From the NCBI RefSeq assembly GCF_029227855.1, contig NZ_CP074356.1: DNA of 64,000 nucleotides. One strand, 5' to 3'. This stretch comes from Escherichia coli (lineage in GTDB: Bacteria > Pseudomonadota > Gammaproteobacteria > Enterobacterales > Enterobacteriaceae). Below are positions 1,332 through 4,300 of this stretch, in pieces (position 1 is the first letter of the stretch; each line of letters opens with the position of its first letter). A program made the position numbers.

Positions 1332-4300
1332 GGTTATGCGCTGATGCCTGATGCGGCGCGGGCGCGTCTTATCATACCCTGGAAGTCTGCGCCCGAATCG
1401 TAGGCCGCCTCCGCTATATTAACTGGCATTGGCAAATTACTCGTCACTACCTTTATTCATGTTTTTTTGGTCTTCATCCGGATAATGTTTTTTTAGATAT
1501 TCCAGGACGTTTTTATTGACCTTGTGTTGCGTATACACCCACCCTTTCCAGTAATCAGGCTGGTCCAGGTAAACTTCTGGCGGAATGGTGAAATCAGAAA
1601 GCGTTAACCATTCGGCTAATAGATCGGGGTTTCGTTTCTGGATTAACTGCAACAGCATAATCAGTGACATAGCTGAGGCAGGAGCCGTACTATCGCCACT
1701 TAAATATTTCCACACTGTTGACCGGTTCGAACGAAAAAGGATCGGTAGCAATGCCCGGTCCAGATTCATTTCATTAAAAATCTTCTCAAATTCATTCATT
1801 TAAATTTTCCTGCCTGGCGTAAACCTCTTAAAAATTGAGATTTATCAAAGAAACGCATTTTAGCACACATCAGGAACCGCTTCACGTTTAGTCCAGAAAC
1901 AGAATTTATTTCGCTTATCAAAACAAGTCTTTACTCTTTTTTACATTGAAAGAGCACAAAATGATTTTCGATTTTATTTATATAAGAAACATTTTTTGTT
2001 TCTTATTGGTGGTGTTTACGCTTACACCAGACAAAAATGCGCTTTACATCACACAAATGGCGGCGTAGATTTCGATTAAATTGCAACGCAGTTTATTTCT
2101 TAAAACAATATTATTTGTTTCTTATAGAAACATTAATGCGACTTATTTTGAACAAGAGAAAATGAATGAAAACTGTAAACGTAGCTTTACTGGCACTCAT
2201 AATTTCAGCAACATCCAGCCCTGTTGTTTTAGCTGGTGATACCATTGAAGCGGCGGCAACAGAGCTTTCAGCCATTAACTCTGGCATGTCGCAATCGGAG
2301 ATTGAGCAGAAGATTACCCGCTTTTTAGAACGCACAGACAACAGCCCCGCTGCGTATACCTATTTGACTGAACATCACTACATCCCTTCTGAAACACCTG
2401 ATACCACTCAGACTCCCACTGTCCAGACAGATCCTGACGCAGGACAAAAAACCGTTGCCGCTACAGGTGATGTACAGACAACCGCCCGTTATCAGAGCAT
2501 GATCAACGCCCGACAGTCTGCGGTAACTGATGCCCAGCAAACGCAAATTACAGAGCAACAGGCGCAGATCGTAGCCACACAAAAAAACGCTCGCCGCGAC
2601 TGGAGATACGCAAAATACTGCGCATTATCAGGAGATGATTAATGCCAGACTGGCGGCTCAAAATGAGGCTAATCAGCGCACTACCACGGAACAAGGGCAG
2701 AAAATGAATGCACTGACAACCGATGTGGCAGCACAACAGCAAAAAGAAAGGGCTCAATACGATAAACAAATGCAAAGTCTGGCGCAGAAGTCTGTCCAGG
2801 CACATGAGCAAATTGAAAGTCTGAGACAAGATTCCGCACAAACGCAGCAACAGTTAACCAACACGCAAAAACGGGTCGCAGATAACAGCCAACAAATTAA
2901 CACGCTCAATAACCATTTCGATTCTCTGAAAAACGAAGTTGAGGACAATCGTAAAGAAGCCAATGCGGGAACTGCATCAGCCATCGCTATCGCCTCACAA
3001 CCACAGGTGAAAACCGGTGACTTGATGATGGTGTCAGCGGGAGCGGGAACCTTCAACGGTGAATCTGCGGTGTCTGTAGGAACATCTTTTAATGCCGGAA
3101 CGCATACGGTACTTAAAGCAGGTATTTCTGCGGATACACAATCTGATTTCGGTGCGGGTGTCGGCGTGGGATATTCGTTCTAATTTTAACAGCAATTTCT
3201 TATTCGCAATTTTCCGTACATTATTTAAGGTTAACAATGATGAATAGCTCCATTAAATCGTTTTCCCTGCTGGCGGTTATATTACTGGCTGGCTGTAGTT
3301 CACCCACTTCCCGCATCGCAGATTGCCAGGCGCAGGGCGTCAGCCATGACACCTGTTATCTCGCAGAACAACAGCGTCAGACGGCTATTTTAAGTGCATC
3401 CGAGGCGCAGGCATTTAAAAATGCAGAAGCCGCACAACATGCCCAGGCGGCAAAGAAAGCCATTTATAAAGGATTTGGAATGACCTTTAGAATGAGCAGT
3501 AAAAACTTTGCTTATCTCAATGATTCATTATGTGCAATTGATGAAGACAATAAAGATGCCACTGTTTATCAGTCAGGTCTGTATAACGTCATTGTTTATC
3601 ATCACACAGGAAAAGTCGCCTTAATGAAGGAAGGTCAATTTGTGGGTTATTTAAAATGAAGGAGCAAAGGAAAATACCCCTGACGCATATTATGATTATC
3701 GGTGCGTTTATTTTTGCCTTCTTGCAAGTAGTATTATTAGCCTCCCTGGTTCACGCTGTGAATGTTAACAACGAAATCCAGGAAGGCTTATTTCAGTCGG
3801 GGCGCATTATGGTAGAAAGTTTGCAGCATATTCTTTCGGTGCAAACGGGGATTAACTGATTTTCACCCCGCCCGATGATGACAGCAGCCGGAGAGATTTT
3901 CGATAATCGGGCAGTCGGCGCTGTCATCACCAGGGCAGGCATTCGCCAGCGCCAACAGCTGGTTGCGCATGGATTGCAGTTCTTCGATATGTCGCTCGAT
4001 CTCCGCCACTTTCTCCAGGGTGCGACGTTTGACGTCGGCACTGTGACGCTGCGGATCGTTAAACAGATTCACCAGTTCGCCGCTCTCTTCCAGGTTAAAG
4101 CCCACCTGGCGCGCCTGGCGCAGTAAGGTCAGTTCGTTGAGATGCTGCTGCGTGTAGGTTCGATAACCATTTTCGCTGCGCATCGGCGGCGTCACCAGCC
4201 CCTTCTCTTCATAGAAGCGGATTGCTTTGCTGGTCAGGCCGGTAATTTTTGCTACATCGCTAATGTTCATCGTTCGCGCAACGCCTCCTGTGCTTTATTA

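What the first reader, a model, noticed from the sequence alone, without database searches (positions are those of the whole stretch)
2166..3183. Small trimeric autotransporter adhesin switched off by an A7 homopolymer
Two consecutive frames encode, respectively, a signal peptide plus repeat-containing stalk and a Q-rich coiled coil ending in a YadA-type anchor (…AIAIASQPQ…GAGVGVGYSF). The frame break coincides with a run of seven A (2581-2587); an A6 tract would give one ~339-aa protein and restore a duplicated motif. A homopolymer inside a surface adhesin gene is the classic arrangement for slipped-strand phase variation, though a fixed pseudogene or a homopolymer sequencing error are equally possible.
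Basis: seen in the sequence. Interest (0 to 1): 0.7.

Follow-up and report, generated by a model that had tools for sequence, protein, structure and literature searches.

The report
Private one-base frameshift in gmrA/Z0639
A small E. coli surface-protein gene that is already known is split here by one extra A that no sequenced relative carries, so this is an ordinary private frameshift or a sequencing miscall, not an on/off switch.

Summary
Window 2581-2587 is A7, and removing one A fuses ORFs 2166-2642 and 2635-3183 into a 338-aa protein identical to WP_001550750.1, "YadA family autotransporter adhesin". It has a signal peptide, a long predicted helix and a full YadA_anchor.

The phase-variation reading does not hold.
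- Among 1,029 complete E. coli genomes carrying this segment, 1,004 have the exact A6 72-mer. None has the A5, A7 or A8 version.
- Six datasets from the window's own clone differ from the window by 0-1 SNP over 3.5-64 kb. All six have A6.
- The run is simply the codons CAA-AAA-AC for Gln-Lys-Thr. It stays at six in divergent alleles and lies far below the poly-A/T lengths (10 or more) used to call phase-variable tracts.

A7 does turn up in a few public read-set assemblies. Those contigs also carry other +1 homopolymer insertions, so they are weak evidence.

The gene is Z0639 of O-island 29, published as "GmrA", a transcriptional activator of fliA. That description sits oddly with its secreted, outer-membrane-anchored architecture.

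Verdict: a private +1 insertion, either a recent null mutation or a consensus error, which cannot be told apart without reads. Low interest.

The parts
2166..3183 (+). gmrA / Z0639 homologue (O-island 29), a YadA-anchor trimeric-autotransporter-type gene, frameshifted in this window
   Evidence: With A6 it equals the 338-aa WP_001550750.1. The published gmrA knock-out primers flank exactly this CDS.
2581..2587 (+). A7 run, which is A6 in all relatives. It encodes Gln-Lys-Thr (CAA AAA ACG) in the intact gene.
2166..2642 (+). Upstream fragment, 158 aa: signal peptide, small helical N-domain, linker, repeat copy 1 and the start of the stalk, then an 18-residue out-of-frame tail (NARRDWRYAKYCALSGDD) and a stop
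2635..3183 (+). Downstream fragment, 182 aa: stalk plus YadA anchor. It has no signal peptide, and its ATG directly abuts AGGAG with no spacer.
   Evidence: The gene caller's Pfam hit on the 182-aa product is PF03895.
2166..2234 (+). Predicted Sec signal peptide, aa 1-23 (MKTVNVALLALIISATSSPVVLA, then GD)
   Evidence: By inspection. Mean Kyte-Doolittle hydropathy of residues 3-23 is 1.87. No dedicated predictor was run.
2445..2522 (+). Repeat copy 1 (aa 94-119). It begins with the sister A6 run at 2446-2451.
   Evidence: One public read-set contig has +A in this run too.
2580..2658 (+). Repeat copy 2 (aa 139-164 of the repaired protein), interrupted by the extra A
3001..3180 (+). YadA-like membrane anchor (aa 279-338), ending in the aromatic residue F
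   Evidence: Pfam E = 1.6e-11. Sequence matches to the solved anchors of AtaA and Hia, E = 5e-7 to 1e-5. Four predicted beta-strands at 287-335.
3237..3659 (+). z0638: 140-aa predicted lipoprotein (LLAGC lipobox), 54 nt downstream and probably co-transcribed
   Evidence: No family or structure match.
3656..3859 (+). 67-aa hydrophobic ORF that overlaps the end of z0638
   Evidence: No family match.
1437..1799 (-). z0640: 120-aa hypothetical protein, transcribed divergently from the TAA-type gene
   Evidence: No significant Pfam match.

Best explanation
The locus is the E. coli O-island-29 gene Z0639 ('gmrA'). It is a 338-aa protein with a Sec signal peptide, a small helical N-domain, a long coiled-coil-type stalk holding two copies of a 26-aa motif, and a C-terminal YadA-type anchor. 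That makes it a small, headless trimeric-autotransporter-type protein.

In this window one extra A has been added to the A6 run that encodes Gln-Lys-Thr at the start of motif copy 2. Translation from the native start then ends 18 codons later. The 158-aa product keeps the signal peptide but has no anchor. The stalk-plus-anchor half has no signal peptide and a poorly placed start codon. As read, the gene is therefore null, and expression of the downstream z0638 may also fall (inferred).

The extra A is private to this sequence. It is a sporadic +1 slip in a short run. It is either a very recent mutation in this isolate or a homopolymer miscall in its consensus, roughly 50:50, and the two cannot be separated without reads. 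It is not the OFF state of an evolved phase-variable switch.
For: Identity and architecture.

The change is private. The closest complete genome, JNEC-KY178, differs over the whole 64 kb by 3 SNPs plus this one A. Five further datasets that carry the window's exact HlyD allele differ from it by 0-1 SNP over 3.5-9.2 kb, and all have A6.

The tract is monomorphic in the population. Of 1,029 complete genomes with the segment, 1,004 have the exact A6 72-mer, and none has the exact A5, A7 or A8 version.

The tract is coding by-product. Both motif copies start CAA-AAA-AC, and alleles 84% identical keep exactly A6 or break it (CGG-AAA-AC).

Tract length is far below the cut-offs used for poly-A/T phase variation: 10 or more, or 11 or more.

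Mononucleotide runs are the known indel hot spots in E. coli.
Against: The exact 158-aa frameshift product is also encoded on 5 contigs assembled from public read sets, and an A7 allele occurs on a second allelic background. So A6-to-A7 may recur in nature. However, those contigs differ from their siblings by further +1 homopolymer insertions (T8 to T9, T7 to T8, T5 to T6, and the other A6 to A7). That pattern points to error-prone reads or mutator strains.

In the 72-mer census, 25 of the 1,029 genomes carry at least one difference whose nature was checked for only one of them, which was a same-length SNP.

No read-level data were available, so a mixed A6/A7 population in the source culture cannot be excluded.
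Confidence: 0.87

Rival explanations
1. Evolved slipped-strand phase variation. The A run is a contingency tract that toggles the surface protein ON (A6) and OFF (A7) at high, reversible frequency.
For: A homopolymer lies inside a surface-protein gene. One relative-free A7 is seen here, and A7 is seen on a few other public contigs in at least two backgrounds. The sister A6 run also shows +A in one contig.
Against: None of 1,029 complete genomes has the exact A5, A7 or A8 version, against 1,004 with exact A6. All six closest relatives have A6. The tract is never longer than 6 in intact alleles, including divergent ones. Its length is far below the poly-A/T cut-offs of 10-11 or more. From general knowledge, E. 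coli phase variation normally uses invertible elements or Dam methylation, not simple sequence repeats.
Confidence: 0.06
2. A lineage-fixed pseudogene: the gene has decayed in this clone.
For: The neighbouring giant adhesin gene siiEA really is broken in this lineage, by a shared 5-bp deletion.
Against: There is no second disabling mutation. The gene is otherwise 100% identical to the intact allele. All six sister datasets of the clone have A6 and an intact 338-aa ORF.
Confidence: 0.02
3. Recoding. Full-length protein is still made from the A7 allele, either by RNA-polymerase slippage (A7 to A6 in the mRNA) or by +1 ribosomal slippage of tRNA-Lys on AAA-AAA.
For: Either event would regenerate exactly the wild-type protein. 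A-runs are known slippage sites (general knowledge).
Against: Efficient transcriptional slippage needs about 9 or more A/T (general knowledge). The in-phase A_AAA_AAC heptamer would support a -1 shift, not +1, and the -1 frame stops after 18 codons (A8 translation). No conservation of A7 exists anywhere.
Confidence: 0.03

Closest known systems
GmrA / Z0639 of O-island 29, E. coli O157:H7 EDL933 (Yang et al. 2018, Front Microbiol, PMC5826968)
   Same: It is the same gene. The published knock-out primers flank exactly this CDS in O157 and in the window. The island layout is the same (z0640, gmrA, z0638, between ybbJ and cueR). The O157 allele is 95.9% identical in nucleotides and also 338 aa.
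   Different: The window copy carries +1 A and is split. The paper describes a cytoplasmic DNA-binding activator of fliA and found no adherence defect for the island deletion. The sequence shows a signal peptide, a stalk and a YadA anchor. The only DNA-binding-named hit found here was a weak coiled-coil match, TMF_DNA_bd, E = 0.079.
Trimeric autotransporter adhesins (YadA, Hia, AtaA, Eib, EmaA, Vomp type)
   Same: N-terminal signal peptide, long helical stalk and a C-terminal 4-strand anchor. Evidence: Pfam YadA_anchor E = 1.6e-11; AtaA and Hia anchor matches at E = 5e-7 to 1e-5; partial EmaA and Vomp hits; PHROG 'adhesin' at E = 7e-22. Alleles vary by insertion and duplication of passenger modules, from 338 to 594 aa.
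   Different: No head, neck or stalk Pfam domains were detected. It is very small. Adhesion is unproven, and the one published test was negative. Trimerisation and surface display were not tested.
Simple-sequence-repeat contingency loci in surface-protein genes (Campylobacter poly-G genes, Neisseria opa and other phasome genes)
   Same: A homopolymer sits inside the ORF of a surface-protein gene, and a 1-nt length change shifts the frame.
   Different: The tract is 6-7 A, against cut-offs of 10-11 or more for A/T. Its length is monomorphic across about 1,000 genomes. The run is fixed by the Gln-Lys-Thr codons.

Membership tests
Trimeric autotransporter (type Vc) proteins | C-terminal YadA-type 4-strand membrane anchor | tested here: met
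   PF03895, residues 279-338, model positions 1-60 of 60, E = 1.6e-11. Sequence matches to the AtaA and Hia anchor structures. Four predicted strands at 287-335.
Trimeric autotransporter (type Vc) proteins | N-terminal Sec signal peptide | tested here: met
   MKTVNVALLALIISATSSPVVLA|GD: a positive N-terminus, a 20-residue hydrophobic core (mean hydropathy 1.87) and V-L-A before the predicted cut. This rests on inspection only; no SignalP-type tool was available.
Trimeric autotransporter (type Vc) proteins | Coiled-coil stalk leading into the anchor | tested here: met
   AlphaFold2 monomer model: continuous helix at 101-145 and 148-277, block-mean pLDDT 54-97, above 90 over about residues 201-260. 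Only coiled-coil-type weak Pfam hits fall in this region.
Trimeric autotransporter (type Vc) proteins | Head or neck adhesive domains (YadA_head, Ylhead, HIM, Trp-ring, etc.) | tested here: not met
   No such Pfam domain was found. Residues 24-100 are a small helical domain plus a low-confidence linker. Head domains are common in the family but not obligatory.
Trimeric autotransporter (type Vc) proteins | Trimerisation, surface display and adhesion | not testable with these tools
   Only a monomer could be modelled, and the anchor scored pLDDT below 50 as a monomer. In the literature, deleting OI-29 did not change adherence to HeLa or Caco-2 cells.
SSR-mediated phase-variable (contingency) locus | Hypermutable tract above the length at which switching is seen | tested here: not met
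   A6 normally, A7 here. Published cut-offs are poly-A/T of 10 or more (PMC6321876) and T of 11 or more (PMC5953494).
SSR-mediated phase-variable (contingency) locus | Tract-length polymorphism among strains | tested here: not met
   Exact A6: 1,004 of 1,029 complete genomes. Exact A5, A7 and A8: none. Divergent alleles also have A6.
SSR-mediated phase-variable (contingency) locus | Length differences among very close relatives or within a culture | tested here: inconclusive
   One of 7 datasets of the clone (the window) has A7 and six have A6. No reads were available to look within the culture.
SSR-mediated phase-variable (contingency) locus | Reversible switching at about 1e-5 per generation or more | not testable with these tools
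   This needs a fluctuation or colony-lineage experiment.
GmrA (Z0639, O-island 29) | Same gene at the same locus as the published gmrA | tested here: met
   The gmrA, z0638, z0640 and OI-29 primers from the paper's Table S2 map around the corresponding ORFs in O157 Xuzhou21 and in the window.
GmrA (Z0639, O-island 29) | A DNA-binding domain, as claimed for a transcriptional activator | tested here: not met
   Pfam, NCBIfam and PDB sequence searches give no significant DNA-binding domain. The only such hit is TMF_DNA_bd at E = 0.079 inside the coiled coil. DNA binding itself was not testable here.

The most novel reading that the evidence does not exclude
The two Gln-Lys-Thr-coding A6 runs of gmrA act as mutational warm spots. 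They recurrently and heritably knock out this surface or motility-linked protein in separate E. coli lineages. A7 is seen here and on public contigs from at least two other backgrounds. This would give a low-rate, selectable ON-to-OFF switch, though not a classical contingency locus.
Probability: 0.06. Interest if true: 0.4.

Novelty: already known. Interest (0 to 1): 0.15.

Why it matters
As a phase-variation candidate it does not matter much. The tract is short, fixed by its coding role, and invariant in about 1,000 genomes. The extra A is an ordinary private frameshift or an assembly error.

Two practical points do follow. First, anyone using this genome should treat the gmrA/Z0639 call as 'frameshifted, verify with reads'. 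Second, the gene published as the transcription factor GmrA has the unmistakable architecture of a secreted, outer-membrane-anchored trimeric autotransporter. That is worth an experimental check of where the protein sits in the cell and how its deletion affects flagella.

Tried and rejected
- I tested whether z0638, the downstream lipoprotein, resembles a known TAA helper such as SadB. It has no significant match to any solved structure and no NCBIfam or PHROG family.
- z0640 and the 67-aa ORF have no family.
- I checked for programmed -1 frameshifting. The heptamer A_AAA_AAC is in phase, but the -1 frame ends after 18 codons, so I rejected it.
- Rfam finds no RNA element in or next to the gene.
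- Promoter and terminator scans were not above shuffled expectation in any useful way.
- The AlphaFold2 monomer model was too poor in the anchor (pLDDT below 50, pTM 0.28) to justify a fold search.
- I tried to use public read-set contigs as independent proof that A7 is a real recurrent allele. I rejected them as decisive because the same contigs carry other +1 homopolymer insertions.
- A literature search for per-run indel rates in E. coli gave only the qualitative statement that runs are hot spots.
- No paper in the library links OI-29 or GmrA to a trimeric autotransporter.

Full report
**What is in the sequence**

Window 2581-2587 is a run of seven A's. An ORF from ATG 2166 runs to a stop at 2642 (158 aa). 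A second ORF, one base out of phase, runs from ATG 2635 to 3183 (182 aa). Removing one A fuses them into a 338-aa protein. This protein is identical to WP_001550750.1, 'YadA family autotransporter adhesin', as annotated in closely related complete genomes. The repaired protein has these parts:
- A typical Sec signal peptide, MKTVNVALLALIISATSSPVVLA|GD.
- A small helical N-terminal region followed by a Thr/Pro-rich linker.
- Two copies of a 26-residue motif, 19 of 26 identical.
- A long predicted helix at 101-277, with pLDDT up to 97.
- A full-length YadA_anchor at 279-338, E = 1.6e-11.

The anchor also matches the solved anchors of AtaA and Hia. The protein ends in the aromatic residue typical of outer-membrane barrels. 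No head or neck domain is detected.

**Where the window comes from and how private the extra A is**

The window is E. coli. The closest complete genome, JNEC-KY178 (NZ_AP045174.1), differs from it over all 64,000 bases by three SNPs and this one A. Of the window's 207 homopolymers of 5 nt or more, no other differs.

I then used the window's exact HlyD allele, which is specific to this lineage, as a handle. It found 11 public contigs. Five of them cover the tract: GCA_017075055.1, SRR10254033, DRR794474, SRR18105866 and SRR5866348. They are identical to the window over 3.5-9.2 kb apart from 0-1 SNP, and every one has A6. So the extra A is private to this one sequence. A pseudogene fixed in the lineage is excluded.

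**Population census of the tract**

I searched tract-centred queries of 71-74 nt against 5,426 complete E. coli genomes. At that length a single difference drops identity below 99%.
- 1,030 genomes carry the segment, 1,029 of them at full length.
- 1,004 match the A6 version exactly.
- None matches the A7, A8 or A5 version exactly. The single hit at 99% or above in each of those searches is a 29-nt partial match in strain IR53017 (earlier versions).
- The remaining 25 carry at least one other difference. The one sampled was a same-length SNP.

About 350 further genomes carry a longer, roughly 84% identical allele of 471-594 aa. In these alleles the corresponding sites are again exactly A6, or are broken by a Gln-to-Arg codon change.

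The run is simply CAA-AAA-AC, coding for Gln-Lys-Thr at the start of each motif copy. It is never longer than six in an intact allele.

**Why this is not a phase-variable tract**

Phase-variable loci driven by simple sequence repeats are recognised in three ways: long tracts, length polymorphism between strains, and variation among close relatives. Published working cut-offs are poly-A/T of 10 or more for Campylobacter (PMC6321876) and T of 11 or more for Neisseria (PMC5953494). This tract fails the first two criteria outright. On the third it shows only the single case in hand.

Short mononucleotide runs are nevertheless the ordinary hot spots for spontaneous indels in E. coli. They are also the commonest residual error in long-read consensus sequences (general knowledge). 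The window spans the 20-kb repetitive siiEA gene without a break. Short-read contigs break there, so the source assembly is probably long-read based (inference).

**Other A7 sightings**

The exact 158-aa frameshift product exists on five contigs assembled from public read sets. An A7 allele also occurs on a second allelic background with three SNPs. These sit on flanks about 2% divergent from the window, so they are independent of it.

Taken at face value, this would mean A6-to-A7 recurs. However, sibling contigs in these sets differ from each other almost only by further +1 homopolymer insertions: T8 to T9, T7 to T8, T5 to T6, and +A in the sister A6 run. That is the signature of error-prone reads or of mutator strains. 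I therefore treat them as weak evidence. For scale, the intact exact protein is on at least 1,000 contigs, which is where the counter is capped.

**Consequence of the frameshift (inferred)**

The 158-aa fragment would be exported but has no anchor. The 182-aa fragment has the anchor but no signal peptide, and its ATG abuts AGGAG with no spacer. As read, the gene is null. Premature termination may also lower expression of the downstream lipoprotein gene z0638.

Rescue by recoding is unlikely. The in-phase A_AAA_AAC heptamer would shift to the -1 frame, which stops after 18 codons. A7 is also short for efficient transcriptional slippage (general knowledge).

**What the gene is known as**

A literature search on the O157 locus tag led to Yang et al. 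2018 (PMC5826968). O-island 29 is a 2,643-bp island with z0638, z0639 and z0640. Z0639 was named GmrA and described as a transcriptional activator that binds the fliA promoter. Deleting the island did not change adherence to HeLa or Caco-2 cells but did reduce motility.

The paper's knock-out primers flank exactly the 338-aa YadA-anchor CDS in O157, and the matching primer sets map around the same ORF in the window. The gene is therefore already named and studied. The published role sits oddly with a signal peptide and an outer-membrane anchor. The only 'DNA-binding' hit I could find is a weak coiled-coil match, TMF_DNA_bd at E = 0.079. No paper in the library connects GmrA or OI-29 with trimeric autotransporters.

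**Verdict**

The best explanation is a private +1 slip in a short coding run of a known gene. I put a real, very recent null mutation and a consensus miscall at about even odds. An evolved switch is at about 6%. This is an ordinary finding of low interest. The one side observation worth passing on is the GmrA naming conflict.

Noticed in passing
window 2166-3183; O157 Xuzhou21 locus L021 2121-3137: The gene published as GmrA (Z0639), a cytoplasmic transcriptional activator of fliA, is this signal-peptide plus YadA-anchor protein. The paper's own knock-out primers flank it. No significant DNA-binding domain was found, only a weak coiled-coil hit named TMF_DNA_bd. The published function and the sequence architecture conflict.
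   Followed up: partly
window 7605-28374 (minus strand), break near 11241: The giant type-I-secreted adhesin gene siiEA is split into 5,790-aa and 1,170-aa ORFs by a 5-bp deletion relative to an intact homologue (L018). The same break is present in JNEC-KY178, where it is annotated 'frameshifted', and the same 1,170-aa fragment appears in DRR794474. It is a real pseudogene of this lineage.
   Followed up: partly
loci L010, L014, L016-L020 (public read-set contigs): Contigs that carry A7 in gmrA differ from sibling contigs almost only by other +1 homopolymer insertions (T8 to T9, T7 to T8, T5 to T6, and the other A6 to A7). This suggests error-prone sequencing or mutator strains in those runs. 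The platform could not be checked.
   Followed up: partly
L022 1724-3139 (strain M1/5); L023 1280-3064 (strain Eco_23-3511): Long alleles of the same gene (471 and 594 aa) have extra or duplicated passenger modules and are intact ORFs with a signal peptide. RefSeq annotates only a 349-aa C-terminal part, so the N-terminus is probably mis-called in those records.
   Followed up: partly
window 1301-1378 (+): There is an Rfam match to naRNA4 (RF02564; 66 bits against a gathering score of 59.5). It is a REP-type element at the ybbJ-side edge of the OI-29 island.
   Followed up: no
NZ_CP064103.1 (strain IR53017), around 3852629: This is the one complete genome in which only the right-hand 29 nt of the tract-centred query match. 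Its copy of the gene is rearranged or recombinant immediately at the tract.
   Followed up: no
window about 35650-36680 (from the JNEC-KY178 annotation): An IS110-family transposase gene lies between copA and ybaP.
   Followed up: no
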